Shown here: piece by piece, positions 150 to 13,940 of the stretch
Layout: each line of letters begins with the position of its first letter
Numbering within the stretch: the stretch's first letter is position 1
UHGV virus genome: UHGV-0276404
Strand: one strand, 5' to 3'
From: a virus
DNA: 14,666 bases
Made by a program: the position numbers and the translations under genes
The notes under the pieces: model-generated
Told to the model about the DNA's origin: nothing
Databases searched by the model: none
The model's input: the letters and a program-made list of their open reading frames with translations, nothing else

Positions 150-3100
150 TTAACTTATTAGATCCGCTATTTTCTTTTCTTGATATGCCATCCTTATTAT
201 TTCAAATTCATCCATACGCATCATGTAAATAGATCTTGTCAATACCAAATTTCCATGTTTATCTTCTTTAATTTCATCTGCACCTTCTATTAATTTAATA
301 ATCCCAAATTCATTAACTGGAATTGGACAAGACTCAATATCAATAGGATAAAAATCACCAGATTCGTTTTCTCTTACCAAAACACTGGTTTCTTCATACG
401 TAATAAGACCATACTTCTTCCAATCAAGACCAGCTTTTGTAATTGCATCCTTAACTTGCTGCGCTACAACTCCAAAATGATATCTGGCATGTTCACTTCC
501 TTTTCGTAATATTTCATCCTTCATCTTCCACATTTGAAATTTTACACTACCCACGGCTTCAATAAGTTCAGTCGGTATATCCGAGAATTCATCTTTGTAA
601 TTAACATCTGAAACAACAGTGACAGCATTCTTGCTATATATGTTATTCCAGTATGCTGTCGTTGTACCATTATTAACTGTTCCTATCTGCCCTGTGGGAG
701 CAAAATAAGGATTATCATTAACTGGATTAGCTATCTCGACAAGAACTTGAGTACCGCCAAAGCTCCCGCCAGGGAACATACGAAACCTGTTTGGTAAGCG
801 ATAGTCATTAGAACCATAAGCATTCCAGCCAGCCCCATTTTCTACAGTACCACGACACCTAAATTCAACAACTTCTTGTATCTGCGGTGTTACATCATAT
901 CCACCACGTATAGACCAGTACTTATTATTGTCAGATTCTCTGCGGGAATCATGAACACGAAAAGCACCATTACTAGCATACTGAATGGCTTTTTTATATT
1001 CTGAAGTATTTTCTGAATACCCCCCCAATATCCAGTTCTCTCCTAATTTAAAGGAAACATCAAAAGCAGAACTTATAGAAGAAAGTGGTGAGTTATTAAC
1101 ACGAGTTGTCAAGGCGGAATTCAATGGTAATTCATTAGCAACCCCACGCGATTGTGAAATAAGAAATATCTGTTTTCCTCGTTTCGAATACACTCCATCG
1201 CTGTACTTTTTATCATTCGAGTATTCCCCACCACTAACTTTATTTGTTATCGCCCACATTCTAAATCCATCGGGATCATCCGGAGCAATACCAGAAGCAG
1301 TAGAAAAAGCGGAATAATTCTTTCCTTTGTAAGTTATAATAGATGCTCCAGAATCCCAATTATCCATAGTTAGAATAATAAGGTCTCCTTCATACATATC
1401 TATACCTTCAGGTTCAAATGAATGGGGGGTCCCATACTTTGGATTATCCATAAGATTTTTGTATCCATAAAGAGAACGAGCCCCCTCAAATGAAAATTCA
1501 GCAAGAATATTACCAGAATAATCAAACTTCTGAATAATATGCAACATAAACGGATGTGTATATCCCCTTAATATATAGATGTACTTACCATCACTGGCAA
1601 CATCTTGAATAACATGAGTATCAGTTCCGCGCTGCGGATGTGGAATCCTGAAATAATACAATGGTCTTGCGTCCAAACTATTGTCAAGGGATTCTACGTG
1701 TATCCTGCTGTAAACAAATACATACCAGGCATCATCATCTGCTGTGCTATCAGTTGCAACAAGAACAACATACCTTCCATCTGAAGATACACACGGGGTT
1801 GCTGAATTATAATTCTGATAAGGATGACCAGAACCAGAATATCCAAAAAGCTGATAAGTAATCACATCAGATTCAGATGTGCTGCTCCCTTTCCAAATTA
1901 ATTTTGAATAACCTTTTCCTCCATCATTTCCTCGATATGTAGGCTGGGTAACCATTTGGGTATAAATAAAAAGGTCATCATCAATAACTATCGTAGATAT
2001 TCCCTGATGGTTATTTAATATTGGTGCAGTGTAAGTAGTATTTTGCACTACTGAACCATCATCAGAAAACGAGTATTCAACCAGCCTGCGCTTCTCTAAA
2101 GCAGCTGCTGTTCCTGTACCAACCCCTGGACCATTCGCCGTAAATCGTACACCAATATTATTTTCAGCAGCCCCTATAGTTGTAAAATCAGTTGAACCTA
2201 TACTTACTATTTCATATTCAATTCCGGTTATGAAGTCACCAGCTGATGTTACTTTAGAGTTGAAGTTTCCACTACCTTCAGCACTGCCAACAACCGTTTG
2301 TAAAATAAATAATTTTTTACCATTATAATTCGCATAAGCACACCCTTGACTTGTAGCCTCACCATTTGGAAAAACTTGGGACTCACCAAAACCCATAAAT
2401 GCTTCCATTAAATGGCGTTGCACCAATGTATTACTGATATTATTACGAAGAGAAAGTAGATGACCAGTTTTGGAAAGAATCATCCCTTCCCCTGTCATTT
2501 TGCTTACATCTACTTTCAACGTATCAACAAGATATACTCCAGGTGGAACATAAGCATTTTCAGGAGCCAGAATAAAAGAATTCGTATCATCAGTTATACC
2601 ATCTCCAACAGCAGCATAATCTTTCACACTTACTGTATCACGCATCTTATCCTGGAACGTTCTGTATACAGCTCCAGCACCATACTGGATAAACCATCCG
2701 AAACCACCGACAACACCAGCAATTGCAGCATCCACATACTTACGCATTGAACGATTATTTACAGCGTCCTGCTCAAGTGATGGATCTGCAAGGTTAGAAA
2801 TTTTGTTTTGCTTTGCATCGTAATATTTTGCAAGCAGCGAGGGCTTCATCAATGCACGTCTGAACCACCCAAAACATCGCTGGATCAGCATCGTCAGGTA
2901 GTCGAATGCATCCTCATGAATTTCGGGGAAAAATTTTCCCTGATTGCGAAGATCAGTCTCCTGCACCACATCAAGCACACGCTCTATCGTAATTCGCCAG
3001 CCAGCAGCAAGCGGCGACGGAAGAACCACTTCACCGCCACTATAAGTGCCCGCTCCAGTTACCTTATAACCGGTATCAAGCACCAATTCTGTTACGTTCC

Positions 3101-3224
3101 CGTTCAGATCAGACACCTGAACAACCAGGTCGGATTTTTTGAAAATACGGAAGGTATACGGAAATGATGTCGTAACTCCGTTACCGGTGTATTCGTTGTG
3201 GTCAACTTCGGTTGAGACCGTCAT
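150..3224 (-). CDS. Tailspike / tail fibre with probable depolymerase: T7 gp17-like N-terminal adaptor, pectate-lyase-like beta-helix, C-terminal intramolecular chaperone (peptidase S74-like)
   Basis: 1024-aa ORF; ATG at 3224 preceded by GGAG 7 nt upstream. N-terminus (EYTGNGVTTSFPYTF...) has the pattern of the T7 gp17 virion-attachment domain. VSVKDYAAVGDGITDDTNSF matches the hallmark start of right-handed beta-helix (Pectate_lyase_3) domains. C-terminus (FQMWKMK...ARYHFGVVAQQVKDAI) resembles the auto-cleaving chaperone domain of endosialidase-type tailspikes. Gene looks AT-rich by eye relative to the terminase region. Confidence 0.85.
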   Translation of the reverse strand: MTVSTEVDHNEYTGNGVTTSFPYTFRIFKKSDLVVQVSDLNGNVTELVLDTGYKVTGAGTYSGGEVVLPSPLAAGWRITIERVLDVVQETDLRNQGKFFPEIHEDAFDYLTMLIQRCFGWFRRALMKPSLLAKYYDAKQNKISNLADPSLEQDAVNNRSMRKYVDAAIAGVVGGFGWFIQYGAGAVYRTFQDKMRDTVSVKDYAAVGDGITDDTNSFILAPENAYVPPGVYLVDTLKVDVSKMTGEGMILSKTGHLLSLRNNISNTLVQRHLMEAFMGFGESQVFPNGEATSQGCAYANYNGKKLFILQTVVGSAEGSGNFNSKVTSAGDFITGIEYEIVSIGSTDFTTIGAAENNIGVRFTANGPGVGTGTAAALEKRRLVEYSFSDDGSVVQNTTYTAPILNNHQGISTIVIDDDLFIYTQMVTQPTYRGNDGGKGYSKLIWKGSSTSESDVITYQLFGYSGSGHPYQNYNSATPCVSSDGRYVVLVATDSTADDDAWYVFVYSRIHVESLDNSLDARPLYYFRIPHPQRGTDTHVIQDVASDGKYIYILRGYTHPFMLHIIQKFDYSGNILAEFSFEGARSLYGYKNLMDNPKYGTPHSFEPEGIDMYEGDLIILTMDNWDSGASIITYKGKNYSAFSTASGIAPDDPDGFRMWAITNKVSGGEYSNDKKYSDGVYSKRGKQIFLISQSRGVANELPLNSALTTRVNNSPLSSISSAFDVSFKLGENWILGGYSENTSEYKKAIQYASNGAFRVHDSRRESDNNKYWSIRGGYDVTPQIQEVVEFRCRGTVENGAGWNAYGSNDYRLPNRFRMFPGGSFGGTQVLVEIANPVNDNPYFAPTGQIGTVNNGTTTAYWNNIYSKNAVTVVSDVNYKDEFSDIPTELIEAVGSVKFQMWKMKDEILRKGSEHARYHFGVVAQQVKDAITKAGLDWKKYGLITYEETSVLVRENESGDFYPIDIESCPIPVNEFGIIKLIEGADEIKEDKHGNLVLTRSIYMMRMDEFEIIRMAYQEKKIADLIS

Positions 3225-3327
3225 GTTAAATCTCCAGATAGTCGCAGCACCCGTTGCGCCGCATATCTGGTCATTCTATTACCTAAAAAACCACATATGG
3301 ATAGACAACCCATAAATACGAACAGAT

Positions 3328-3343
3328 ATTACCTTTCAGGTGA
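3328..3343. promoter_or_regulatory. Operator-like inverted repeat ATTACCTTTCAGGTGA (copy 1 of the ATTACC-N5-GGTRA family)
   Basis: Intergenic, upstream of the 3420 gene. An extra ATTACC half-site at 3288-3293 and the shared string AACCACATATG also occur upstream of the tRNA unit (10708-10730). Confidence 0.45.
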
Positions 3344-3380
3344 TTTGCAAAACGTGCTGGATAGCAAACAAATTATTTGT

Positions 3381-3400
3381 TACTGTATAAATATACAGTT
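3381..3400 (+). promoter_or_regulatory. LexA (SOS) box TACTGTATAAATATACAGTT
   Basis: CTGT-N8-ACAG with an AT-rich spacer, near-perfect match to the E. coli LexA consensus TACTGTATATATATACAGTA; 20 nt upstream of the ATG at 3420 and overlapping a plausible -35/-10. Confidence 0.75.
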
Positions 3401-3419
3401 ATCGTATGGAGAAGATAAG

Positions 3420-3677
3420 ATGCAGCAGTATCACTATCCACTGGAAGACGGATTTACCGAAAGGATTCACACGCCGGGAGGCGTCAGATCACTGGTGGAG
3501 GGATCGCACTTGATGAAATTACTCCGGGATCTCGATAAGGATGGATTTAATGTCGATGGCCCACTTGCCGAACTGACTGCACTGATTAACTACGTCACCA
3601 GGTCACAGATGTCTATGCGGGATCTGCAAACACATCTCGACTATTGTGCCGAACAATTACGAAAACAAACCCGGTAA
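3420..3677 (+). CDS. Small Tum-like antirepressor candidate (85 aa), homologous to the C-terminal domain of the Bro-N antirepressor at 4826-5536
   Basis: ATG at 3420 with GGAG 9 nt upstream. The longer ORF-track start (3297) would place the LexA box and operator inside the coding sequence, so the internal start is preferred. Shares Y..PL..G....IH.P ... G.V..L.E.S.LM.LL..L..DG..V.G..AELT ... LRD.QTH..Y with the Ant C-terminus. Confidence 0.6.
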   Translation: MQQYHYPLEDGFTERIHTPGGVRSLVEGSHLMKLLRDLDKDGFNVDGPLAELTALINYVTRSQMSMRDLQTHLDYCAEQLRKQTR

Positions 3678-3683
3678 ATTTAA

Positions 3684-3701
3684 AGGCCGCAAGAGCGGCC
3701 T
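3684..3701. terminator. Bidirectional GC hairpin AGGCCGC-AAGA-GCGGCCT between convergent genes
   Basis: 7-bp GC-rich stem with 4-nt loop and T-rich flanks on both strands; near-identical to the hairpin at 6553-6570. Confidence 0.55.
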
Positions 3702-4428
3702 ATCGTTTCGCTTTGTGCTCATCCCAGCACGTTTTGCACCATGCCATTAATCCGTCCGCATTTTGATTATTAGGGTAAAAGCTGGTTCGTTTTCTGCGGA
3801 CATTACAAATTGGGCACCACTTCATATGGCGTGTATTCTTTGGGCCATCGAGACACCTTGCACACCACTTAGTCAATCCATCTGGATTTTTTGACGATTT
3901 CCTGAATTTTTCATATGGTAGGTTTATTCTGCATCGCAAGCACTGCTTGCTACCACTTGAAACTCTGTTAGCTGATTCTTCTTTTGGCGGCGATACAGAA
4001 GGTATTCTTGCTGGCTCTGATACTGCCTGAGGTGCTTTTTTAGATGACTGAGACGATATGTCATCACCAGGGAATCTTCCATGATATGCCGGACGCGTTG
4101 ACACTCCAGGTGGAAGCTCAGCTGTAAACGGCTTTGGCTGAATCAGTTGCCTCTCTTTTGCTAACTCCTGCTGTTTATAATATGTCTGGATTACCGCACT
4201 ATCATAAGCAGGAGGTGCGGAAATATTAGGCGCATTACCTCCAGTTTTTTGAAACTGAGTAGAGGTGTGTTCTATCACCTGTGTACGATTAATCGTTATC
4301 TCCCCATCTTCGGTCTTTATCGTTTTGTTATGATTAACGACCGTACGATCAGAGATCTTAGTCTTGTTCTGGTTGATAACGTAAATAATCACCGCAACCA
4401 CACCAACAACTATCCAGAAAACTTCCAT
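3700..4428 (-). CDS. Membrane-anchored protein with four C-terminal CxxC motifs (two zinc-ribbon-like modules); function unknown
   Basis: 242-aa ORF; ATG at 4428 with GAGG 7 nt upstream. N-terminal hydrophobic helix (MEVFWIVVGVVAVIIYVI), then CLRC...WCARC...WCPIC...WCKTC. Transcribed divergently from the antirepressor. Confidence 0.7.
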   Translation of the reverse strand: MEVFWIVVGVVAVIIYVINQNKTKISDRTVVNHNKTIKTEDGEITINRTQVIEHTSTQFQKTGGNAPNISAPPAYDSAVIQTYYKQQELAKERQLIQPKPFTAELPPGVSTRPAYHGRFPGDDISSQSSKKAPQAVSEPARIPSVSPPKEESANRVSSGSKQCLRCRINLPYEKFRKSSKNPDGLTKWCARCLDGPKNTRHMKWCPICNVRRKRTSFYPNNQNADGLMAWCKTCWDEHKAKR

Positions 4429-4447
4429 TGCTTTTCCTCACAATAAC

Positions 4448-4464
4448 ATTACCTTAAAGGTAAT
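4448..4464. promoter_or_regulatory. Perfect 17-bp palindrome ATTACCTTAAAGGTAAT (operator-like, copy 2)
   Basis: Read directly; sits in the divergent promoter region between the 3700-4428 gene and ant. A partial copy (CTTTCAGGTGA) follows at 4471-4481. Confidence 0.5.
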
Positions 4465-4540
4465 ATCTTGCTTTCAGGTGATCAAGCGTTAAACGCAACC
4501 AACCAAATACGGTTGATTTTAATATTTCTTCGCGTTTATC

Positions 4541-4556
4541 ATTACCTTTGCGGTAA
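4541..4556. promoter_or_regulatory. Operator-like inverted repeat ATTACCTTTGCGGTAA (copy 3)
   Basis: Same TTACC-N5-GGTAA geometry, about 270 bp upstream of the ant start. Confidence 0.45.
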
Positions 4557-4825
4557 ATTTACATCGCACTCCTCTTGTGCCATAGTAATCGGGTACTGGC
4601 AAAATCCAGTGCCGGGATTGGCGTCCCGAGTTACTAAGTGGCGCATACCACGCCAGACGTGGTTTTTTTATGCGTTAAGCACAGCTATATCCGAATTATG
4701 GTGGGCTGGGCAGGGGTCCGAAAGGACGCCGGTACCACTTAGGCCGGTACGCCAACCTTGTCCAGTTCACCACCAGTAATTGGCGTTGCGGTGGTGATTA
4801 AAATCACTAAGTGGAGATAACCACC

Positions 4826-5536
4826 ATGGCTAATGCTCAAACTGCCATCTTCAAATTTGAATCTGTTAACCCTATCCGTTCCATCATTATCGATGGCCAA
4901 CCATGGTTTGTAGCCCAAGACGTTTGTAGTGCGCTGCGTATCCAAAACGTCACCCAAGCACTTGAAAAACTGGATGATGATGAAAGGTCTATGTTCAACA
5001 TAGGGCATGAACATCGTGCAATTTTTGACAGCCGAGTAAAAGAGATCAACATCATCTCCGAGTCAGGCCTCTACACACTGATCCTCCGCTGCCGCGACGC
5101 AGTGACACCAGGCACTATCCCCTACCGCTTTCGTAAATGGGTTACAGGTGAGGTTCTTCCTCAGATCCGCCGCACCGGAAGTTACATTAAAAACTCGCTC
5201 CCGCAGGAAGAACGCATAAAGATGGTTGCCGACCAGGTTGCAAACGCCACAGCATCAGCAGTGATGCAGGCAATGAAGATAGAGAACAAAACCTACAGCG
5301 CCCCGCTGAAGCCCGGCTACCGCAGCCTGATTCACTCGCCGTCTGGTGTTCTCGGCCTGACGGAGAACTCACTGCTGATGAATCTGCTGAACCAGTTACA
5401 GGAAGACGGGCACGACGTATCGGGCGCGGCGGCGGAGCTGACCACCATGTTCTGCTACATCGTCGGTGTGAGCAAATGCCTGCGTGATATCCAGACGCAC
5501 GCGGAATACATCAACGACAAGGCAGGGTTCTTCTGA
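4826..5536 (+). CDS. ant: Phage antirepressor with N-terminal Bro-N domain
   Basis: ATG at 4826 with GGAG at 4813-4816 (the ORF-track GTG at 4811 overlaps the SD). N-terminus FKFESVNPIRSIIIDGQPWFVAQDVCSALRI...GLYTLILRCRDAVTPGTIPYRFRKWVTGEVLPQI fits the Bro-N/AntA fold. Confidence 0.85.
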   Translation: MANAQTAIFKFESVNPIRSIIIDGQPWFVAQDVCSALRIQNVTQALEKLDDDERSMFNIGHEHRAIFDSRVKEINIISESGLYTLILRCRDAVTPGTIPYRFRKWVTGEVLPQIRRTGSYIKNSLPQEERIKMVADQVANATASAVMQAMKIENKTYSAPLKPGYRSLIHSPSGVLGLTENSLLMNLLNQLQEDGHDVSGAAAELTTMFCYIVGVSKCLRDIQTHAEYINDKAGFF

Positions 5537-5607
5537 CGGGCGGTGGCACATGGATGTGCTTTTAAATAATTCTGTACGATTGCAGACAGGGTGGTGAATA
5601 GAGTACT

Positions 5608-5623
5608 ATTACCTTACGGGTGA
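5608..5623. promoter_or_regulatory. Operator-like inverted repeat ATTACCTTACGGGTGA (copy 4)
   Basis: Intergenic, downstream of ant and upstream of the leader ORF and terminator that precede the 5753 gene. Confidence 0.4.
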
Positions 5624-5660
5624 TCCATAGCGATTAGGCACCGATACAGGAGGAGCCCAC

Positions 5661-5693
5661 ATGAGAAAATTTGACGAGTACGAAGGCGTTTAA
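5661..5693 (+). CDS. Possible 10-codon leader peptide (MRKFDEYEGV)
   Basis: Strong SD (CAGGAGGAG) 5 nt upstream of ATG 5661; stop at 5691-5693; followed 20 nt later by an intrinsic terminator. Too short to support by composition alone. Confidence 0.3.
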   Translation: MRKFDEYEGV

Positions 5694-5712
5694 CATTCGG
5701 ATAGTTTAATGA

Positions 5713-5737
5713 CGGGGCCATTAGGCCCCGTTTTCAT
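5713..5737 (+). terminator. Intrinsic terminator / attenuator CGGGGCC-ATTA-GGCCCCG + TTTTCAT
   Basis: 7-bp GC stem, 4-nt loop, U-run; ends 5 nt before the SD of the 5753 gene. Confidence 0.6.
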
Positions 5738-5752
5738 GTCTGGAGACAGTTT

Positions 5753-6292
5753 GTGTTAAGTGAAGAAATGCAATTTGCCATGGCTGTGGCTCAAATCGTA
5801 AGTGCAGTCGCGGTTTCGCTTGGCTTGTTCATAGCTATCGCTACTATTATTTATAATGTAAATACAGCGAGAAAAGTACACACTTCAGTATTCCTTGGTG
5901 AAAGCAGGTTTGATGTAGATTATAAGAAAGGCCTATCTACTATGCGCCGCATTCACGAGTCGAACAAATCATTCCGCTCTTATATGTATCCAAGCAATGG
6001 GCAGGCTGATCTTACGGATGAAGAAAAGATAGAGAAGAGAGAAATAATTTACTGTCTAGGTTTCTACGAACGCATGGCTGTGAGCGTGAAGCGGAAAACT
6101 TATGATGAGACCATGATTAAGGAAGTATTTTACAGCTCCGTTGTAAATAACTATCAGATTGCGCTACCTCTTATACAAGCTATTAGAGAAAAAGAAAACA
6201 TAAACACATATTTTAAAGAATATGAATGGTTAGCCACACGATGGAAGGATTGTCCATTGAAGGATAAATCCCCGTGGTACAAGTTTTGGTAA
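5753..6292 (+). CDS. Membrane-anchored moron protein (179 aa), unknown function
   Basis: GTG at 5753 with GGAGA at 5742-5746 (alternative ATG at 5768). N-terminal hydrophobic helix (AMAVAQIVSAVAVSLGLFIAIATIIY) followed by a charged soluble domain; AT-rich by eye. Confidence 0.7.
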   Translation: MLSEEMQFAMAVAQIVSAVAVSLGLFIAIATIIYNVNTARKVHTSVFLGESRFDVDYKKGLSTMRRIHESNKSFRSYMYPSNGQADLTDEEKIEKREIIYCLGFYERMAVSVKRKTYDETMIKEVFYSSVVNNYQIALPLIQAIREKENINTYFKEYEWLATRWKDCPLKDKSPWYKFW

Positions 6293-6385: not shown

Positions 6386-6547
6386 ATGAAAAAAGCATTT
6401 GCTGCACTGTTCGTTTTGTTGTCTCTGGTAGCTTCAACTCAGGCCTTTGCCGGTCGTTGTCAGCACGACAGCGATACTGCCGCTGACGGCTCCCGCTGCG
6501 GTGGGCGTTCTGCGGATTCCCGCCCTGGCGGCGGTGGCATTCGTTAA
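6386..6547 (+). CDS. Small secreted peptide (53-aa precursor with a cleavable signal peptide; ~31-aa mature peptide with two Cys and a Gly-rich tail)
   Basis: MKKAFAALFVLLSLVASTQAFA / GRCQHDSDTAADGSRCGGRSADSRPGGGGIR. The ORF-track start (6314) overlaps the preceding terminator, so the ATG at 6386 is preferred. SD is weak (GGA 9 nt upstream), and the apparent TTGACG / TATAGA promoter lies so close that the mRNA may be near-leaderless. Confidence 0.5.
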   Translation: MKKAFAALFVLLSLVASTQAFAGRCQHDSDTAADGSRCGGRSADSRPGGGGIR

Positions 6548-6552
6548 AAACA

Positions 6553-6570
6553 AGGCCGCGAAAGCGGCCT
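6553..6570. terminator. Bidirectional GC hairpin AGGCCGC-GAAA-GCGGCCT between convergent genes
   Basis: Paralogue of the 3684-3701 hairpin; T-rich flanks on both strands (TGTTTTTAA on the minus side, TTCCTTTT on the plus side). Confidence 0.6.
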
Positions 6571-6582
6571 GTGACATGTCAC
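6571..6582. repeat. Perfect 12-bp palindrome GTGACATGTCAC (copy 1 of 3)
   Basis: Read directly; immediately abuts the terminator hairpin and overlaps the stop codon of the 6579-6875 gene. Confidence 0.9.
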
Positions 6583-6875
6583 GTTCCTTTTCTGAATGAT
6601 AGCCATTCGAAAAATGATGACATTCCACCGCAGACAATAGCAAAGATGATCCCACCAAAGAAGAGAAGGCCAGCCTGCCACCACTCCCACCGCCATACAT
6701 CCACAGCGCCAACCATACCAACAATCGCTCCAACAAATGGAATATAGCTCACGATGAAAGCAATGGGGGCTGCAATTATCCAGTGCAATCCCCACCATGA
6801 TTCAAGCCCAGCCATAATTGCTGCCAACTGAAAAAGACCAACGACGATATAAACAATGAATCCTATCGCTTGCAT
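6579..6875 (-). CDS. Small multi-pass membrane protein (98 aa), last gene of the virion operon; holin-like or immunity-like
   Basis: ATG at 6875 with GGTGA 4 nt upstream. Three to four hydrophobic segments, Trp-rich (WRWEWW). Overlapping alternative-frame ORFs (6434-6736, 6544-6798) are judged spurious. Confidence 0.6.
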   Translation of the reverse strand: MQAIGFIVYIVVGLFQLAAIMAGLESWWGLHWIIAAPIAFIVSYIPFVGAIVGMVGAVDVWRWEWWQAGLLFFGGIIFAIVCGGMSSFFEWLSFRKGT

Positions 6876-6883
6876 GTAGTCAC

Positions 6884-7255
6884 CTATTTATTTTTTAGCT
6901 TTTCATCCATAGCAAATTTCGTTGCTAAATTTTCACCATCTGATTTAAGCCTTCCAATAAATTTCCGCTTACCGTCTTGAGAGGAATTTAAATAGTATAT
7001 ATTTGATTCAGCAATCTTTTGTATGTACGACTCGCATGACACAACCGAAGCTTTGGATATAGAATCAACACTTTCTCCTGTCTTAGCGTATTTTACGACC
7101 TGCCCTTTTATACATCCAAAATATTCCATTGTATGCTTTTTAGAATCCTCCAGTGTTTCCCCATTTTTAGGCTGAATCATTAACGGTGAGGTAGTATCTG
7201 CAAAAGATTTTACAACTAAAAGCATAAGAATAATCATTAATATAATTCTGTTCAT
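6884..7255 (-). CDS. Secreted/periplasmic protein (123 aa) with a signal peptidase I-type signal peptide; AT-rich
   Basis: ATG at 7255 lies 1 nt after the TAA of the transglycosylase gene, with GGGAAG upstream (translational coupling). MNRIILMIILMLLVVKSFA / DTT... signal peptide, no lipobox; two Cys in the mature part. Confidence 0.65.
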   Translation of the reverse strand: MNRIILMIILMLLVVKSFADTTSPLMIQPKNGETLEDSKKHTMEYFGCIKGQVVKYAKTGESVDSISKASVVSCESYIQKIAESNIYYLNSSQDGKRKFIGRLKSDGENLATKFAMDEKLKNK

Positions 7256-7256
7256 A

Positions 7257-8366
7257 TTACTTCCCTAGCATGAACTGCGATGGTGGGATCAGAAAGTCGT
7301 TACCCTGTTCACGCTCAACACGGCGCTGATAACGCTCAAGAGAGCCTGGGTCGCCAATCTGTTTAATCCAGCCGTCAACCTTTCCTGGGCCAGCGTTATA
7401 GGCAGCTACTGCCAGAACCGGGTTATTGTCGTATTTCTTCATCTGCGCGCCGAAATAAGCTTGCCCCAAGCGGGCATTATAGCGCGGGTCATTCAACCAT
7501 TTATCTCGGTCCCACGGCACACCAGCAAGGCGGGCAGCTTCGGGGCCAGTATCTTCCGTCACCTGCGCTACGCCAACAGCGCCTTTTGGCGACACCAGAG
7601 GTGTTCCGTCCTTTCCGTACTGATTTCCGCCACTCTCCTGCCAGATTATTGCAGAGAATAACTGCGCCTCACTCGGTGTATCGGTTACCTCAATCTTGCC
7701 GTTCGGCCCCATCATCTGTTGATACATCGGCACATACCACGCCTCCGCCGCACCGTTCGCGGCATTCTCGCGCCACGAAACCCAGTTCTGTTCGATCTCT
7801 TCCTGACTCTGGCCGTGGGCTTCGCCGTAAGCGATGATGCTATGATATGCCTTCAATCCTGCCTGGTTTGCCATTGTCGGGTTACGGAACTGCATCGATA
7901 GGTTTTTTAGTGTCGCATCCTGCATATCCGCCTCATACTGGCGAACCTGTCCTATTTCGTACCTCCCGGCCTGCGTAGTGAACTGAATACGCTGTTGCTG
8001 CGCCTGCTGCATGAAAGCATTACGAGCCTGTTCATCTGGCAGCGACATAGCCAGTTGTTCAACCTGAGCATCAAACTGCTGCGTATACTCATGGCCTTTT
8101 CCAATAGCATTTTTCCCTTTCAGGTTAAGCAATCCTGTTTCAGGATTATTCAGCAGATCACTGCCTGTCTGACTGAGTTTAAGGGATGCCTCCTGAACAA
8201 AGGCAATATTGGCACGCTGTTTTGCCTGACCAAAAACATCAATTGCCTCTGTCCCTGCCCGAACAAAAGCATCACCAATACCTGGCTGAGAAAACGTCTG
8301 CAAGCCTGCTGACTGAACTCCACGACTCTCAACCTGACGTCCGGATACTGTTGGTACGACTGGCAT
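7257..8366 (-). CDS. Internal-virion-type protein with C-terminal lytic transglycosylase (SLT) domain
   Basis: Start ATG at 8366-8364 overlaps the upstream stop (TAATG) with GGAGGA 5 nt upstream; the ORF-track N-terminal extension to 8441 is rejected. SLT motifs IIWQESGGNQYG...GAVGVAQV...AYNAGPGKV; Gln-rich N-terminal region. Confidence 0.85.
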   Translation of the reverse strand: MPVVPTVSGRQVESRGVQSAGLQTFSQPGIGDAFVRAGTEAIDVFGQAKQRANIAFVQEASLKLSQTGSDLLNNPETGLLNLKGKNAIGKGHEYTQQFDAQVEQLAMSLPDEQARNAFMQQAQQQRIQFTTQAGRYEIGQVRQYEADMQDATLKNLSMQFRNPTMANQAGLKAYHSIIAYGEAHGQSQEEIEQNWVSWRENAANGAAEAWYVPMYQQMMGPNGKIEVTDTPSEAQLFSAIIWQESGGNQYGKDGTPLVSPKGAVGVAQVTEDTGPEAARLAGVPWDRDKWLNDPRYNARLGQAYFGAQMKKYDNNPVLAVAAYNAGPGKVDGWIKQIGDPGSLERYQRRVEREQGNDFLIPPSQFMLGK

Positions 8367-8911
8367 TATAATCCTCCGGGTAATCTGGTTCCTGCTGCTG
8401 CCCCGATTGGCGCAGGAGTGCTTTGAGTAAACGGACTCCACGTCCCACCAAACATCTGGTACGCACCGTATGCCTTCAGAGGCGCAGTGAGCAATGTTGT
8501 TGCTGCTCCTACATTCCCCTGTTTACGGGCTGAACTGGCTTCTGCTTTATAGTTGGCAGCCTGCACCTGATAACCGTAAGCCTCGCGTTGCGCGTTATTC
8601 ACCGTCGTTAGCGAATCAAGAGCACCAAACTGAGCAGTGTCACCAAATATATCCAGCGCGTTACCTGTAGATAAATCAGCGCCGGTAGCCCCCATTGTCG
8701 CCGCCTGTGTACCAAGCCGCTGTCGGGTCTCTCTGCGCCGTTGCTCAGCTTCAGCGTTACCTCTGTTTATTGCATCATTTGCCTGAGCTGTGGCTATATC
8801 TGCGTTCGCTTCTGCAACCTTCGAGGCATACTTTCCCTGTTGGTACTGGGTGTATGCCTGAATGCCACTCATGGCGAGCATTGCGCCACCAGCAATAACC
8901 GGATCGCACAT
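8366..8911 (-). CDS. Putative internal virion / ejection protein (181 aa, Ala/Gln/Gly-rich)
   Basis: ATG at 8911 overlaps the upstream stop (TAATG); operon context between a virion-type protein and the SLT protein. No recognisable catalytic motif. Confidence 0.55.
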   Translation of the reverse strand: MCDPVIAGGAMLAMSGIQAYTQYQQGKYASKVAEANADIATAQANDAINRGNAEAEQRRRETRQRLGTQAATMGATGADLSTGNALDIFGDTAQFGALDSLTTVNNAQREAYGYQVQAANYKAEASSARKQGNVGAATTLLTAPLKAYGAYQMFGGTWSPFTQSTPAPIGAAAGTRLPGGL

Positions 8912-9375
8912 TATTTTCTCTCCATGTGAAATCTGTGGAAATTAAGACCAAGAGCACCATAAGGCGCGGCTTCTTCAAGCCTGAATCCAAGCCAGTGCAG
9001 CCATGCTTTGGCAACATGGTTTCGCTCATCGACGTAGTTTTCCAGGCGCGGATAAACTGCCAGCATCTGCTGCAATACAGGGCGGCAGTGGCGAAGAAAT
9101 GTCTTCTGATATTTTTCAATACGGCTGGTTCCTACCAGCCAGGGCGTACCATTGCCACCGATCATTGACGCCGGAGATACGCCAAACATGGTTACCAGTT
9201 CTCCGTTCGCAAATCCTGACCAGGCCATAGTCGCAGTGCGAAGACCAACACGCAGCGCATCTTCGGTAGTCATCAGCGATACCGCATACAGTTCGTCAAT
9301 ATCAGCCTGACGAACATCCGGCAAAATCATCTGAAGATGCTCTTCGGTAGCGGGAACAATTCGAACATCGATCAT
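8911..9375 (-). CDS. Hypothetical virion-operon protein (154 aa); weak GNAT-like C-terminal motif
   Basis: ATG at 9375 overlaps the upstream stop (TGATG). C-terminal NHVAKAWLHWLGFRLEE loosely resembles the acetyl-CoA-binding region of GNAT acetyltransferases; recalled from memory, unverified. Confidence 0.5.
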   Translation of the reverse strand: MIDVRIVPATEEHLQMILPDVRQADIDELYAVSLMTTEDALRVGLRTATMAWSGFANGELVTMFGVSPASMIGGNGTPWLVGTSRIEKYQKTFLRHCRPVLQQMLAVYPRLENYVDERNHVAKAWLHWLGFRLEEAAPYGALGLNFHRFHMERK

Positions 9376-9965
9376 CAGAATCCCCCAACAGTAAGGCGAG
9401 GAATAACGGCAAGAACAGACAGCGGCAACGGATCAAGCTGACGGATTTTTACACGTCCGTTTTTGCCCCAGTTACTGTCCAGTTTCACTTCTACTTTTCC
9501 GGTAGCATCATCAACAGGATCATCGTAGAACTCGAATTCACGCTGTGGATATTCGTACCATTTACCGCCGGGCGTAGTCGCCCAGATGCCGCGACTGGCA
9601 TTCACAACCAGAGTAACGGAGGGGATCACCTGTTTTTTGTCCAGCAGCGTTTCCTGTCCGTTAATGTTGATATCCAGTGTTTCGAATTCAGCAGTTATTG
9701 GCAGGCCGATGTGCACTACAGCCCCCGGAGATTCCAGCGTGACGGCACCTCCGGAAACCACTTTCTGTGGTTCCACGTTCGCATCAGAGAGAATGTTTAC
9801 GGTCTGGCCTTCAAGATGAGACAGGCCTCCAAATGTCCGGCGCGCCATCTGCCAGTTCGTGGTGGCCACATTCCTGAGGGATGGCGGGACGTTCCTGTTA
9901 GCACGAACCACTACAGCGGTATTGCTGGTTACAGAAATAATGTCGCAACGTAATTCTTTTGACAC
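9375..9965 (-). CDS. Hypothetical structural-operon protein; 5' end and true start uncertain (possible fusion remnant)
   Basis: The frame is open from 9965, but the first in-frame start is GTG with no SD and it overlaps the portal-like ORF by 37 nt in another frame. The internal ATG at 9848 also lacks a good SD. Confidence 0.45.
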   Translation of the reverse strand: MSKELRCDIISVTSNTAVVVRANRNVPPSLRNVATTNWQMARRTFGGLSHLEGQTVNILSDANVEPQKVVSGGAVTLESPGAVVHIGLPITAEFETLDININGQETLLDKKQVIPSVTLVVNASRGIWATTPGGKWYEYPQREFEFYDDPVDDATGKVEVKLDSNWGKNGRVKIRQLDPLPLSVLAVIPRLTVGGF

Positions 9966-10459
9966 CTCATCGCCAGTATCAGGATCAGTTCCGGTATCGG
10001 GAATGGCATTGTGCGAATGATGTCCTCGTCATCCTCCAGCACTGCCATTGCACCAGTGCTGTATGTGCCGAGGCTTCCGTATAACTGCGGCAGCGACTGA
10101 TAGAGATTCGACTTATTGAACATATCGTTCATGCGGTTCTGCACCGCCTCAAGCCACAACTTAACAGGGCCATAATCCATCATTTCAGGATCTGGCGTAG
10201 CCAGGCGAAACCACGGACGCGCGGGGCTTGTGATGCCTGACATCATGCCGCTGGCGAGAGTGCGCGCCGCCATAGTCCCGGTCGAATCAATAATGCGTGT
10301 ATTGCGTCGATCGTTACGGTTGACCTCAGAAGTCAGAAAGCGGGAACCACGCGGGTTGATGTAATCACTCAACTCGCGCCAGTGCGGCTCGAACGACTGA
10401 CGCTCGCTTTCAAGTTGTGCGAACTGTTTGTTCAATCGCTCTTTAGTTGTTTCCGCCAT
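9929..10459 (-). pseudogene. Portal (head-tail connector) N-terminal fragment, T7 gp8-like, only ~176 aa
   Basis: ATG at 10459 with GGAG 8 nt upstream. ERQSFEPHWRELSDYINP...TLASGMMSGITSPARPWFRLA matches the N-terminal pattern of podovirus portals as I recall T7 gp8 (DRAPYETRAQNCAQYTIP...LASKLMLALFPMQTWMRLT). The ORF ends after 176 aa, whereas full portals are 500+ aa. Confidence 0.5.
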
Positions 10460-10769: not shown

Positions 10770-10785
10770 ATTACCTTTCAGGTAA
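10770..10785. promoter_or_regulatory. Operator-like inverted repeat ATTACCTTTCAGGTAA (copy 5), overlapping a candidate promoter (TTGACA at 10750-10755)
   Basis: TTGACA, a 15-nt spacer, then the motif; heads the plus-strand tRNA unit. An upstream half-site at 10708-10713 and AACCACATATG at 10719-10729 mirror the arrangement at 3288-3343. Confidence 0.45.
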
Positions 10786-11107
10786 GCAAATGGTTCATTC
10801 CGGTTATTAACCTGACTGGCTTGTCGTTAAATTGAACAGGTGGAGTGAGCTTTTATTTTGAGCAGTACGGCGTATGGCACATGCGCCGATAGCGGTCTGG
10901 ATACGTTTAAGGGGCACCCTCCCTTGCTCGGGCAAACGAACCAGGTAGCCGGAATGTGCAAGTCGAGCGGTTTTATTCCGCGCACGGGGATTCACCATCC
11001 CGGCGATTCGGTGTGACGCCTCGGAAGAGACGAGGGTACAACGATGAGAGCATTTATGGAGCCGCGACAAAGTGTGGCGCCTTAACAGGCTAAGTGCTCT
11101 CAGCGTT

Positions 11108-11184
11108 GTGGCATTAGCTCAGTTGGACAGAGCAACCGCCTTCTAAGCGGTTGGTCGCAGGTTCGAATCCTGCATGCCACGCCA
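11108..11184 (+). tRNA. tRNA-Arg (anticodon UCU, reads AGA)
   Basis: Hand-folded cloverleaf: acceptor GTGGCAT/ATGCCAC, D-arm GCTC-AGTTGGACA-GAGC, anticodon arm ACCGC-CTTCTAA-GCGGT, variable TGGTC, T-arm GCAGG-TTCGAAT-CCTGC, discriminator G and encoded CCA. 77 nt. Confidence 0.9.
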
Positions 11185-13305: not shown

Positions 13306-13898
13306 TGATTACCATCCTGACGTTCTTTGAGTCGCTTCCTGGCTGCTGCTATGCGATCAGCAATTGTCACATTCACATTAACATCCAGACGTTCTTTGAA
13401 CGCGTTGACATCAACATGCTTACCAATCAGCTCAAGGTTCTTCACCTTGTCAGGCCATTTAATTTTTTTGAGGATTGTCTCTATCGAATCCTCGTTCATG
13501 TTCATGATGGTCGATGACAGATCAAAGCCACTAAGCGTAGTGCGCCAGATTTTCGGCCACTCACGGATTGGTTTAAGGCTCCCATCGTCGTTGAGGATGT
13601 CGATCACATCCATCTGGTCGATCTCCACCAGGCGCATAAGAACGTAATCGGCACTGACGCGCATTCGTTTGTTGCGCTCCTCCATCAGCTCGGCAATCCG
13701 TTTTTGAATGCGTTCATCGCGCATCATGACACTGGCTTTAACTGCCGCTGTATTTGGGGAGAATCCTGCGTTAATCGCTGCCTGAGTCTGGTTTTCAGGC
13801 GTTTTGATGTATGACTGGCAATAAGCCTCCTGCATTGCTGTTAGTGGCTTAAATTGCGTTGATTTGCGTTTATAGGTTTTAGGTTCAGCAGGCATCAT
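13302..13898 (-). CDS. terS: Terminase small subunit
   Basis: KPLTAMQEAYCQSYIKTPENQTQAAINAGFSPNTAAVKASVMMRDERIQKRIAELM is a typical TerS DNA-binding N-terminus. Start placed at the ATG pair 13898/13895, because an intrinsic terminator (13941-13967) lies inside the ORF-track N-terminal extension from the TTG at 13976. Confidence 0.8.
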   Translation of the reverse strand: MMPAEPKTYKRKSTQFKPLTAMQEAYCQSYIKTPENQTQAAINAGFSPNTAAVKASVMMRDERIQKRIAELMEERNKRMRVSADYVLMRLVEIDQMDVIDILNDDGSLKPIREWPKIWRTTLSGFDLSSTIMNMNEDSIETILKKIKWPDKVKNLELIGKHVDVNAFKERLDVNVNVTIADRIAAARKRLKERQDGNQ

Positions 13899-13940
13899 AA
13901 CCACCGTGGTAATAGTTACCGTTGTGGTAATAGTACCATG

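What the first reader, a model, noticed from the sequence alone, without database searches (positions are those of the whole stretch)
3286..5536. Two-input antirepressor module: an SOS-boxed mini-antirepressor that is a stand-alone copy of the Ant C-terminal domain, next to a full Bro-N Ant
The 85-aa product of 3420-3677 aligns with the last ~85 residues of the 236-aa Bro-N antirepressor encoded 1.1 kb away, and carries a near-consensus LexA box (3381-3400) over its promoter. LexA-controlled small antirepressors are established (coliphage 186 Tum; Gifsy-type antirepressors in Salmonella). Here the same putative repressor-binding domain exists in two forms: a minimal LexA-gated one and a Bro-N-fused one behind the ATTACC operators. 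That suggests induction can be triggered by DNA damage or by a second, operator-controlled signal. The module sits next to the tailspike gene, similar to the immI position in P22.
Basis: partly seen in the sequence, partly recalled or inferred. Interest (0 to 1): 0.72.

Follow-up and report, generated by a model that had tools for sequence, protein, structure and literature searches.

The report
Two antirepressors sharing one effector domain
An E. coli prophage of the phiV10/epsilon15 type carries two antirepressor genes built on the same ~80-residue repressor-binding domain: one is the known SOS (LexA)-controlled Ant of Salmonella phage SPC32H, and the other is a Bro-N fusion held in check by a phage P1-type C4 antisense RNA, so each half is a known kind and only their pairing on one shared domain appears new.

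Summary
The 85-aa ORF (3420-3677) and residues 155-228 of the 236-aa Bro-N protein (4826-5536) are homologous (43% identity, E 3e-16). The site at 3381-3400 differs from the LexA consensus at 2 of 20 positions; no match is expected by chance.

- The small protein is the orthologue of SPC32H Ant (PDB 5D50, E 7e-46). That protein is a published LexA-controlled antirepressor, so this half is already known.
- The Bro-N gene is not simply behind operators. Its leader is a complete P1-type immI cassette: probable Rep operator, promoter, IsrK/a1b1 RNA with terminator, C4 antisense RNA, then targets a2 and b2, with b2 covering the ant ribosome-binding site.
- In 80 related viral contigs the C4 loops and their targets co-vary, giving at least 7 specificity types.
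- The ATTACC-N5-GGTAAT sites are inferred Rep operators, because they cluster around rep in complete relatives.

I found no published description of three points:
- The SPC32H-Ant domain is a portable C-terminal module. It is fused to Bro-N, AntA, Rha, ORF6N or P22_AR_N domains.
- Phages carry one to three copies next to the tailspike gene.
- The copies sit under LexA, C4 or sar control.

Whether the long form binds Rep was not tested. I rate this a new variant of a known kind, of moderate interest.

The parts
3328..3344 (.). Probable Rep operator (ATTACCTTTCAGGTGAT) in the divergent tailspike/antS intergenic region
   Evidence: Pattern search: 7 sites against 0.09 expected. The same motif clusters on both sides of rep in SPC32H, TL-2011b and HEMP4. 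It is conserved 92-93 nt before the antS ATG in 79/81 loci and is present in SPC32H. Which promoter it controls (antS or tailspike) is not known.
3381..3400 (.). LexA (SOS) box TACTGTATAAATATACAGTT
   Evidence: 2 mismatches to the consensus, 0 matches in 200 shuffles. The CTG-N10-CAG box is conserved in 79/81 loci and in SPC32H. LexA binding itself was not tested here.
3420..3677 (+). antS: 85-aa stand-alone antirepressor, orthologue of SPC32H Ant
   Evidence: phmmer against PDB 5D50_E gives E 7e-46 over residues 2-84. tblastn gives 85.5% identity to the annotated 'ant' of SPC32H. The position between the tailspike and virion genes is the same. The longer 126-aa reading from 3297 is rejected because it would contain the operator and the LexA box.
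3684..3701 (.). G+C-rich hairpin between antS and the convergent ORF, probably a bidirectional terminator
   Evidence: Terminator scan. Inference only.
3700..4428 (-). Intervening gene: membrane-anchored protein with two zinc-ribbon-like repeats (phrog_6762, function unknown). It is cargo that separates antS from antL in this phage and is not part of the mechanism.
   Evidence: PHROG E 1.9e-149 with weaker endonuclease VII/Lar-like zinc-ribbon matches. It is absent in phiV10 and HEMP4 and is a pseudogene in TL-2011b.
4448..4464 (.). Perfect palindromic Rep operator ATTACCTTAAAGGTAAT, 20 nt upstream of the minus-strand ORF start
4541..4557 (.). Rep operator ATTACCTTTGCGGTAAA, abutting the -35 hexamer of the isrK/C4/antL promoter
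   Evidence: phiV10 has TTTACCGCAAAGGTAAA at the same place.
4558..4586 (+). Predicted promoter TTTACA-17-(TG)CATAGT. The expected start near 4593 coincides with the 5' end of the isrK match.
   Evidence: Promoter scan and Rfam isrK match start. Consensus match only, not mapped.
4593..4669 (+). IsrK-type RNA, equivalent to the a1/b1 target element of C4. a1 is TTGGCGT at 4618-4624, b1 is CTAAGTGG at 4634-4641, and an intrinsic terminator lies at 4647-4669.
   Evidence: Rfam isrK 63.5 bits (gathering 50). c4-a1b1 43.4 bits at 4580-4632, below its gathering score of 46.7. Complementarity to C4. Terminator.
4694..4777 (+). C4 antisense RNA. The b' loop is CCACTTAG at 4735-4742 and the a' segment is ACGCCAA at 4749-4755.
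   Evidence: Rfam C4 66 bits (gathering 45). Predicted fold. Loop/target covariation across 80 loci.
4780..4814 (+). C4 targets in the antL leader. a2 is TTGGCGT at 4780-4786. b2 is CTAAGTGG at 4807-4814 and overlaps the Shine-Dalgarno GGAG at 4812-4815.
   Evidence: Exact complementary words. a and b types always co-vary with C4.
4826..5536 (+). antL: 236-aa protein with a Bro-N domain (aa 17-112, nt 4874-5161) and a C-terminal SPC32H-Ant-type domain (aa 155-231, nt 5288-5518)
   Evidence: Pfam Bro-N E 9.6e-20. 5D50_E E 1.2e-13. BLASTP against antS E 3e-16. A Bro-N relative from phage ZX5 lowered lysogeny about 1000-fold when overexpressed (PMC9782041).
5608..5624 (.). Rep operator ATTACCTTACGGGTGAT downstream of antL, ahead of the DUF4760 gene
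   Evidence: The equivalent site is present in TL-2011b and HEMP4.

Best explanation
This is the antirepressor locus of a phiV10/epsilon15-type (Uetakevirus-like) prophage. It delivers one effector, the ~80-residue SPC32H-Ant domain, through two separately gated genes. In SPC32H that domain forms a tetramer that binds Rep and breaks the DNA-bound Rep tetramer into dimers.

Gate 1 (antS). LexA sits on the box at 3381-3400. DNA damage removes LexA, the 85-aa Ant is made, and Rep leaves its ATTACC-N5-GGTAAT operators, which are scattered over the genome.

Gate 2 (antL). Three layers keep the gene silent:
- a promoter at about 4558-4586 lies next to a Rep operator;
- its transcript mostly ends at the IsrK terminator;
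- read-through RNA carries C4, whose a' and b' segments pair with a2 and b2 and so cover the antL ribosome-binding site.
Short IsrK RNA carries decoy copies (a1, b1) that could titrate C4.

Consequences. antL stays silent in a lysogen, and also on a superinfecting genome of the same C4 type. It can be expressed when Rep has been removed (reinforcing induction), when IsrK outruns C4, or from an incoming phage of a different C4 type (breaking immunity).

Status of each step:
- Shown here: the homologies, the motifs, the RNA matches, the covariation and the co-occurrence with Rep.
- Taken from published work on SPC32H: LexA control and Rep disassembly.
- Inferred: that antL's C-terminal domain binds the same Rep, that the operators are Rep sites, and all of the dynamics.
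For: antS:
- It is the SPC32H Ant orthologue.
- The LexA box is strong and conserved.
- Published summaries of the LexA-Ant-Rep mechanism are in PMC7380047 and PMC9638917.

Rep and its operators:
- A full-length Rep homologue is present in all 35 phage records that carry antS. Only one other record out of 50,697 has one.
- Operator motifs cluster around rep in three complete genomes.

antL:
- Its C-terminal domain matches 5D50_E at E 1.2e-13.
- That domain stays 94-100% identical across 71 loci while the N-terminal domain is swapped.
- C4, isrK and c4-a1b1 are matched by Rfam.
- The a'/a1/a2 and b'/b1/b2 complementarity is exact, and b2 lies over the SD.
- 4 b types and 3 a types co-vary in all partners, in at least 7 combinations.
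- Two C4 modules in one phage always differ in type.
- A ZX5 Bro-N relative promotes the lytic route when overexpressed.

Precedents: P1 immI and Gifsy-1 IsrK-AnrP.
Against: - There is no direct evidence that antL binds Rep. Its domain is only 43% identical to antS.
- Between E. coli and Salmonella phages, antS is far more conserved (about 85%) than Rep (about 42%), so target specificity cannot be read from sequence.
- The rep gene is outside the window.
- No promoter is mapped, and the operator at 3328 may serve the tailspike promoter instead of antS.
- The phiV10 reference genome carries a frameshifted antL, and Salmonella members lack antL altogether. antL is therefore dispensable for the basic switch.
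- This prophage copy lacks about 12 kb of virion genes, so induction here would not yield particles.
- The AlphaFold model of antL was too poor to test the fold.
Confidence: 0.6

Rival explanations
1. The two proteins act on different targets. antS inactivates the phage's own Rep. antL's diverged C-terminal domain is directed at the Rep of related heteroimmune phages or another host or prophage regulator, so antL is a weapon in phage-phage conflict or a cross-talk factor rather than a second input into the same switch.
For: - The two domains share only 43% identity.
- In the DG(H)DVSGAAAEL motif, antL's domain resembles the stand-alone forms of Klebsiella-type phages more than it resembles antS.
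- The C4 specificity types are diversified and mutually orthogonal, which suggests inter-phage conflict.
- Trans-acting antirepressors between prophages are documented in Salmonella (PMC7380047).
Against: - antL's C-terminal domain is nearly invariant (94-100%) in E. coli phages whose Rep is also nearly invariant (98.5-100%). That fits a cognate pair.
- Overexpressing the ZX5 Bro-N protein affected ZX5's own lysogeny.
Confidence: 0.2
2. In antL the shared domain serves only as a tetramerisation module. The active part is the N-terminal Bro-N (or AntA, Rha, ORF6N, P22_AR_N) domain, a DNA-binding or other regulator unrelated to Rep inactivation.
For: - SPC32H Ant is a tetramer, so the domain does carry an oligomerisation function.
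- Bro-N-type domains are generally regarded as DNA-binding (stated in PMC9782041).
- The domain is always C-terminal and follows many different N-terminal domains.
Against: - If the N-terminal domain were the effector, it would be odd for five unrelated N-terminal domains to be exchangeable at one locus under the same control while the C-terminal domain is held constant.
- The residues invariant between antS and antL extend over the whole domain.
Confidence: 0.12
3. antL is a decaying or silent remnant with no present function. The paralogy reflects an old duplication or recombination, and the module effectively has one input (LexA).
For: - phiV10's copy is frameshifted.
- Salmonella relatives lack it.
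- This prophage is itself deleted in virion genes.
Against: - antL is intact in at least 71 of 81 loci.
- Full-length homologues occur across Enterobacterales.
- The regulatory RNAs show compensatory changes that only selection on pairing would maintain.
- A relative has an overexpression phenotype.
Confidence: 0.05

Closest known systems
Ant/Rep antirepression system of Salmonella phage SPC32H (Kim & Ryu 2013 J Virol; Kim et al. 2016 PNAS; PDB 5D50)
   Same: - antS is the orthologue (E 7e-46, about 85% identity).
- It has the same length and the same position, divergent from the tailspike gene.
- The Rep operator and LexA box are arranged the same way upstream.
- A homologous Rep is present in complete relatives.
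   Different: - SPC32H and other Salmonella members have only the stand-alone gene.
- Here, and in most E. coli members, one or two further genes carry the same domain fused to another N-terminal domain and sit under RNA control.
- E. coli Rep is only 42% identical to SPC32H Rep.
- The two primary papers are not in the held library, so what they say about larger homologues could not be checked.
immI of phages P1 and P7 (C1 operator, c4 antisense RNA, icd, ant1/2), alongside the small C1 inactivator Coi
   Same: - The primary repressor has operators dispersed over the genome.
- A secondary antirepressor operon is repressed both at an operator and by a C4 RNA that is cut from the same transcript.
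- That C4 RNA pairs with a/b sites upstream and downstream, with b2 at a ribosome-binding site.
- Variation in specificity gives heteroimmunity.
- A second, small repressor-binding protein exists elsewhere in the genome.
   Different: - There is no icd gene; b2 covers the SD of ant itself.
- The antirepressor protein is of a different make-up, with a Bro-N domain and an SPC32H-Ant domain.
- The small and large antirepressors are homologous to each other here, whereas Coi and Ant are not known to be.
- The small one is LexA-gated.
- The upstream a1/b1 element has its own terminator, as isrK does.
Gifsy-1 isrK-orf45-anrP locus (Hershko-Shalev et al. 2016, PMC4825925), alongside the LexA-controlled Gifsy antirepressors (Lemire et al. 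2011)
   Same: - An isrK RNA with a leaky terminator is followed by a C4-like processed RNA and an antirepressor gene.
- The Gifsy-1 leader has the same a1/a'/a2 words.
- The same prophage family also uses LexA-controlled small antirepressors.
- IsrK-driven AnrP expression induces the prophage.
   Different: - AnrP has an ORF6N-type N-terminal domain, and its C-terminus shows no similarity to antS or antL.
- No orf45-type coupled ORF is evident here.
- Gifsy-1 is a lambdoid siphovirus with an unrelated repressor.
P22 immI (mnt, arc, sar RNA, ant) next to the tailspike gene 9
   Same: - An antirepressor locus lies adjacent to the tailspike gene of a podovirus.
- In relatives (TL-2011b and 5 of 12 loci scanned), a further copy of the Ant domain is fused to the P22_AR_N domain and is preceded by a sar RNA match.
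   Different: - The window has no sar, Arc or Mnt match.
- P22 c2 is RecA-cleavable and ant is not needed for SOS induction, whereas here the antirepressor is the presumed SOS route.
Tum of coliphage 186
   Same: The logic is the same: a LexA-repressed small protein that inactivates a non-cleavable repressor.
   Different: No sequence relationship was detected. Pfam gives no antirepressor match for antS, and the domain family is small and confined to Rep-bearing phages.

Membership tests
SPC32H-type Ant (LexA-controlled antirepressor of epsilon15-like phages) | Sequence homology to SPC32H Ant over the full length | tested here: met
   5D50_E E 7e-46 over residues 2-84. 85.5% identity to the annotated ant of KC911856.
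SPC32H-type Ant (LexA-controlled antirepressor of epsilon15-like phages) | LexA box in the ant control region | tested here: met
   2 mismatches to the consensus, 0 matches in shuffles. Conserved in 79/81 loci and in SPC32H. Actual LexA binding is not testable here.
SPC32H-type Ant (LexA-controlled antirepressor of epsilon15-like phages) | Same genomic position (divergent from the tailspike, ahead of the virion genes) | tested here: met
SPC32H-type Ant (LexA-controlled antirepressor of epsilon15-like phages) | Cognate SPC32H-type Rep in the same phage | tested here: inconclusive
   rep lies outside the window. All 35 antS-bearing phage records carry a full-length Rep homologue. Rep-type operators are present in the window.
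SPC32H-type Ant (LexA-controlled antirepressor of epsilon15-like phages) | Binds Rep and releases it from DNA | not testable with these tools
   Needs biochemistry. Applies to both antS and antL.
P1/P7-type immI (C4 antisense RNA control of ant) | C4 RNA matching the curated covariance model | tested here: met
   RF01695 66 bits against a gathering score of 45.
P1/P7-type immI (C4 antisense RNA control of ant) | Upstream a1/b1 and downstream a2/b2 sites complementary to a'/b', with b2 at a ribosome-binding site | tested here: met
   - The complementary words are exact: 7 nt for a and 8 nt for b.
- b2 (4807-4814) overlaps GGAG (4812-4815).
- The RF03163 c4-a1b1 match scores 43.4 bits, just under its gathering score of 46.7.
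- isrK scores 63.5 bits against a gathering score of 50.
P1/P7-type immI (C4 antisense RNA control of ant) | Compensatory variation between C4 and its targets | tested here: met
   4 b types and 3 a types change together in C4 and in the upstream and downstream sites across 80 loci. b1 was not found for the CTACAAAGG type.
P1/P7-type immI (C4 antisense RNA control of ant) | icd-like ORF between C4 and ant whose translation is the direct target | tested here: not met
   Only 48 nt separate C4 from the antL ATG, and b2 covers antL's own SD.
P1/P7-type immI (C4 antisense RNA control of ant) | Operator of the primary repressor at the operon promoter | tested here: inconclusive
   The operator-like site 4541-4557 abuts the predicted -35. 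Neither the promoter nor the binding is mapped.
P1/P7-type immI (C4 antisense RNA control of ant) | Ant protein homologous to P1 Ant1/2 | not tested
   No P1 Ant sequence was compared.
Gifsy-1 isrK-orf45-anrP | isrK RNA with terminator upstream of the antirepressor gene | tested here: met
   RF01394 63.5 bits against a gathering score of 50. Terminator at 4647-4669.
Gifsy-1 isrK-orf45-anrP | Small coupled ORF (orf45) preceding the antirepressor | tested here: inconclusive
   The only ORF in the leader is a 103-aa TTG frame (4468-4779) that spans the promoter and both RNAs. No orf45-like frame is evident.
Gifsy-1 isrK-orf45-anrP | Protein homologous to AnrP | tested here: not met
   BLASTP of AnrP (STM2616) against antS and antL gave no hit at E up to 10.
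P22 immI | sar antisense RNA with Arc/Mnt repressors controlling ant | tested here: not met
   There is no sar match in the window and no Arc/Mnt domain. sar and P22_AR_N occur only in a third copy in relatives.
Bro-N domain proteins | Pfam PF02498 above the gathering score | tested here: met
   71.5 bits against 25.6, residues 17-112 of antL.

The most novel reading that the evidence does not exclude
The SPC32H-Ant domain is a portable Rep-disassembling warhead. Phages of this group mount it on interchangeable N-terminal domains (Bro-N, AntA, Rha, ORF6N, P22_AR_N) and place it behind interchangeable classical control circuits: LexA, P1-type C4/IsrK in at least 7 mutually orthogonal specificities, and P22-type sar. 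One phage carries up to three copies. The diversification would reflect an arms race. Phages sharing one Rep would use hetero-specific C4 modules to express Ant on superinfection, so breaking each other's immunity or inducing each other. The N-terminal domains would add a function that is still unknown, such as targeting or sensing.
Probability: 0.3. Interest if true: 0.62.

Novelty: new variant of a known kind. Interest (0 to 1): 0.45.

Why it matters
Large numbers of prophage genes are labelled 'BRO-N/AntA/Rha antirepressor' without anyone knowing which part of the protein does the work. Here the C-terminal ~80 residues are homologous to an antirepressor whose complex with its repressor has been solved. 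They stay constant while the N-terminal domain is swapped.

That gives a direct test of where antirepressor activity and specificity reside, and it raises the question of what the N-terminal domains are for.

The locus also unites three textbook control schemes on one effector: SOS/LexA as in 186 and SPC32H, C4 antisense RNA as in P1, and sar as in P22. The phiV10-type phages involved have nearly identical repressors but at least seven C4 specificities. They form a natural panel for studying secondary immunity, cross-induction and superinfection among prophages of pathogenic E. coli (O157 and O103 hosts are among them).

If the long form proves not to bind Rep, the finding reduces to a known LexA-Ant system lying next to an ordinary C4-controlled Bro-N gene.

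Tried and rejected
- **Primary papers.** Reading the two SPC32H papers (PMC3807360, PMC4983836) failed because neither is held. What is said about LexA control and Rep disassembly rests on secondary sources and on the PDB entry name.
- **Structure.** The AlphaFold2 model of antL from a 12-sequence alignment had mean pLDDT 52.9, with the C-terminal domain below 60. It is too poor for a fold search, so none was run. The domain is an obligate tetramer in the crystal, which may explain the poor monomer model.
- **Pfam.** Pfam has no family for the shared domain. antS gives only a sub-threshold DUF724 match.
- **Longer ORF.** The 126-aa ORF from 3297 is rejected, although many automatic gene calls use it (the 126-127-aa entries). 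It would contain the operator and the LexA box, and characterised homologues are 85-86 aa.
- **A false C4 target.** I first read GGTGGTGA (4790-4797) as a C4 target. It is complementary to the closing stem of C4, not to a loop, and is not one of the a/b sites.
- **Gifsy-1 comparison.** The Gifsy-1 AnrP C-terminus shows no similarity to a small ORF next to the dinI homologue (STM2621.1n), nor to antS or antL. That this ORF is GfoA is my recollection and is not verified.
- **Weak Rfam hit.** A CRISPR-DR57 match at 4534-4557 (17.5 bits, E 0.45) is just the operator palindrome.
- **First protein search.** The search with antS returned only stand-alone forms. The fused forms appeared only in the profile search of cluster representatives.

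Full report
**What is in the sequence**

The region 3225-5700 lies next to a minus-strand tailspike gene (150-3224; Peptidase_S74 chaperone domain). It contains two plus-strand genes.
- ORF 3420-3677 encodes 85 aa and has GGAG 7-10 nt before its ATG.
- ORF 4826-5536 encodes 236 aa with a Pfam Bro-N domain at residues 17-112.

BLASTP aligns residues 2-75 of the small protein with residues 155-228 of the large one: 43% identity, no gaps, E 3e-16.

The 20-mer at 3381-3400, TACTGTATAAATATACAGTT, has 2 mismatches to the LexA consensus. It is the only such site in the window and none occurred in 200 shuffles.

ATTACC-N5-GGTRAT palindromes occur 7 times against 0.09 expected, at 3328, 4448, 4541, 5608, 10770, 13897 and 13915.

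**Where the window comes from**

The window belongs to an E. coli prophage of the phiV10/TL-2011b/HEMP4 group, relatives of Salmonella phages epsilon15 and SPC32H, genus Uetakevirus. It is 99.7-99.9% identical to a prophage of E. coli SW070919. Compared with that prophage it lacks an IS3 element and two blocks of virion genes, 5.7 and 6.5 kb (partial PHROG matches).

**The small gene is a known antirepressor**

The small protein matches one solved chain, 5D50_E 'Anti-repressor protein', at E 7e-46 over residues 2-84. It is 85.5% identical to the annotated ant gene of SPC32H, which lies in the same place, divergent from the tailspike gene.

The SPC32H upstream region has the same layout: an ATTACC-N5-GGTAAT site, then a LexA box (TACTGTATGTTTATACAGTG), then GGAGAAGA and the ATG.

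Among 81 loci (80 IMG/VR contigs plus the window), 79 keep a CTG-N10-CAG box 39-40 nt before the ATG, with changes only in the spacer. The same 79 keep the operator 92-93 nt before the ATG.

Secondary sources state two things.
- In several Salmonella prophages, including this system (citing Kim & Ryu 2013), an Ant is made after LexA self-cleavage and inactivates the repressor by protein-protein contact (PMC7380047).

The primary papers are not held. This half of the finding is thus an orthologue of an already characterised system.

**The ATTACC sites are most likely Rep operators**

In SPC32H the motif forms clusters on both sides of rep (33527-33681 and 34389-34452). Single sites stand ahead of the terminase, head, lysis and ant/tailspike genes. 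TL-2011b and HEMP4 show the same pattern around their rep homologue, which is 42% identical to SPC32H Rep.

A full-length Rep homologue is found in all 35 phage records that carry antS, and in only one other record among 50,697.

The rep gene itself is outside the window. Binding is inferred, not shown.

**The Bro-N gene is controlled by a P1-type antisense RNA cassette**

Rfam places isrK at 4593-4669 (63.5 bits, gathering 50) and C4 antisense RNA at 4694-4777 (66 bits, gathering 45). The c4-a1b1 target family scores just below threshold at 4580-4632.

The cassette, in order:
- A consensus-type promoter, TTTACA-17-(TG)CATAGT at 4558-4586, would start transcription at about 4593. Its -35 hexamer abuts the operator at 4541-4557.
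- IsrK ends in an intrinsic terminator at 4647-4669.
- The C4 hairpin loop CCACTTAG (b', 4735-4742) is exactly complementary to CTAAGTGG in IsrK (b1, 4634-4641) and to CTAAGTGG at 4807-4814 (b2). b2 overlaps the GGAG of the Bro-N gene.
- The single-stranded ACGCCAA of C4 (a', 4749-4755) is complementary to TTGGCGT in an IsrK loop (a1, 4618-4624) and at 4780-4786 (a2).
- The whole leader folds far better than shuffles, z = -4.9.

This is the anatomy of immI in P1 and P7, where ant is repressed both by C1 at an operator and by C4 RNA (PMC8198154). One difference is that there is no icd gene; the target is the antirepressor's own ribosome-binding site.

It is also the anatomy of the Gifsy-1 isrK-orf45-anrP locus. 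There, read-through of the IsrK terminator gives an inactive mRNA, and short IsrK activates its translation in trans, leading to prophage induction (PMC4825925). The Gifsy-1 leader uses the same a words.

**The pairing is under selection**

Across the 80 related contigs I found four b types (CTAAGTGG, CTAAAAGG, CTACAAAGG, CTAGTAGG) and three a types (TTGGCGT, TTGGTCT, TTTGCAC).
- In every case the C4 loop or bulge and the downstream target carry the matching change.
- The upstream target does so as well, with one exception: b1 was not found for the CTACAAAGG type.
- At least seven combinations occur.
- Five phages carry two C4 modules in opposite orientation, and in all five the two modules differ in type.

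These are multi-site compensatory changes of the kind that distinguish P1 from P7 immunity. I state that parallel from established knowledge of those phages.

**The shared domain is a portable C-terminal module**

A profile of the domain found only 62 clusters among 1.84 billion representatives. Most are stand-alone proteins of 80-100 aa. In longer proteins the domain is always at the C-terminus.

The N-terminal partners are Bro-N, AntA, Phage_pRha and ORF6N. In the third copy in TL-2011b the partner is P22_AR_N.

Among the 81 loci, 58 have two genes with the domain, 13 have three and 10 have one; some of the last are cut by contig ends. The long form's C-terminal domain stays 94-100% identical. 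Its N-terminal domain is exchanged among at least four Bro-N variants (54-100% identity), AntA and ORF6N.

Third copies are of two kinds.
- A second C4 module of a different specificity type.
- A P22_AR_N fusion preceded by a match to the P22 sar antisense RNA.

Salmonella members have only the stand-alone gene. The phiV10 reference sequence has a frameshift inside the long form's C-terminal domain.

Full-length homologues of the long form are common in Enterobacterales. They are annotated only as BRO-N proteins, and no Pfam family covers the C-terminal part.

One relative, ORF4 of phage ZX5, was overexpressed in a published study. It lowered the number of lysogens from 1e9 to 1e6. That paper mentions neither the small gene, nor LexA, nor C4 (PMC9782041).

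**Most likely mechanism**

LexA holds antS off. After DNA damage the 85-aa Ant is made and removes Rep from its dispersed operators.

antL is held off by three layers: Rep at its promoter, the IsrK terminator, and C4 pairing over its ribosome-binding site. It could be expressed in three situations.
- After Rep is removed, which would reinforce induction.
- When IsrK titrates C4, as in Gifsy-1.
- From a superinfecting genome whose C4 type the resident prophage cannot match, as in P1/P7 heteroimmunity.

The diversification and within-genome orthogonality of C4 types favour a role in phage-phage conflict.

Status of the steps:
- Shown here: the homologies, motifs, RNA matches, covariation and Rep co-occurrence.
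- Borrowed from SPC32H: the LexA and Rep biochemistry.
- Inferred: that the long form's domain binds the same Rep.

In this phage the two genes are separated by a convergent gene of unknown function and a hairpin. In phiV10 and HEMP4 the isrK promoter follows antS directly, so read-through from the LexA-controlled promoter is conceivable there.

**Rival readings**

- The long form may target a different repressor.
- Its shared domain may serve only for tetramerisation.
- It may be a dispensable remnant.

The constancy of the C-terminal domain against swapped N-terminal domains, the maintained RNA pairing and the ZX5 phenotype argue against the last two. None is excluded without binding assays.

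**Verdict**

- The LexA-gated small antirepressor is already known.
- The Bro-N gene is a new member of the C4-controlled antirepressor type.
- In the literature I could search, I found no description of three things: that the two share one effector domain, that this domain is combined with five N-terminal domains, and that three classical control circuits are used at a single locus.

I rate it a new variant of a known kind, with moderate interest.

Noticed in passing
window 7348-7352 and 9995-10003 (junctions); compare L007 24154-29908 and 32566-39110: Relative to the 99.9%-identical prophage of E. coli SW070919, the window lacks two blocks of virion genes (about 5.7 and 6.5 kb), which leaves truncated or fused ORFs (7257-8441, 9375-9965, 9929-10459). 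It also lacks the IS3 element that interrupts the tailspike gene in that strain. This copy is probably unable to make particles, yet it keeps both antirepressor genes intact.
   Followed up: partly
window 3700-4428 (-) with operator 4448-4464: A 242-aa protein has an N-terminal membrane helix and two zinc-ribbon-like CxxC repeats (phrog_6762, unknown function; weak endonuclease VII/Lar-like matches). It lies convergent to antS and has a perfect Rep-type palindrome 20 nt upstream of its start. It is absent from phiV10 and HEMP4 and is a pseudogene in TL-2011b, so it looks like inserted cargo.
   Followed up: partly
window 5608-5624, 10770-10786, 13897-13931: Further Rep-type operators stand ahead of the DUF4760 gene (5753-6292), ahead of the head-gene block, and as a tandem pair at the start of the small terminase gene. 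This suggests that Rep represses late and structural operons directly at many dispersed sites, as C1 does in P1, rather than only at an early switch region.
   Followed up: partly
L001 (TL-2011b) 6497-7510; also L023, L070, L074, L080, L085: A third gene carrying the Ant domain is fused to the P22 antirepressor N-terminal domain (PF10547). It has a match to P22 sar antisense RNA immediately upstream on the opposite strand. This amounts to a P22-type immI module in the same locus.
   Followed up: partly
L002 (phiV10) about 4333; PhiV10p23/p22: In the reference phiV10 genome the Bro-N 'anti-immunity' gene is split by a frameshift inside the C-terminal Ant domain. The tail of the domain is annotated as a separate 29-aa ORF. 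This could be a sequencing error or a genuine inactivation.
   Followed up: no
L016, L031, L037, L060, L066: Some relatives carry two convergent isrK-C4-ant modules. The two C4 RNAs in one phage always differ in their a and/or b specificity.
   Followed up: yes
window 11108-11181 (+): A tRNA gene (Rfam 73 bits) lies between the packaging and head genes. It is annotated tRNA-Arg at the equivalent position in relatives.
   Followed up: no
L001 (TL-2011b) 5623-6168: In TL-2011b the gene downstream of antL gives a weak Pfam match to the YafO toxin family (E 8e-6). At that position the window has a DUF4760 gene instead, so the cargo downstream of the ant locus is variable.
   Followed up: no
phage records: Between E. 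coli and Salmonella members the small Ant is much more conserved (82-86% identity) than its presumed partner Rep (42-43%). This is unexpected for a tightly co-evolving pair and is unexplained.
   Followed up: no
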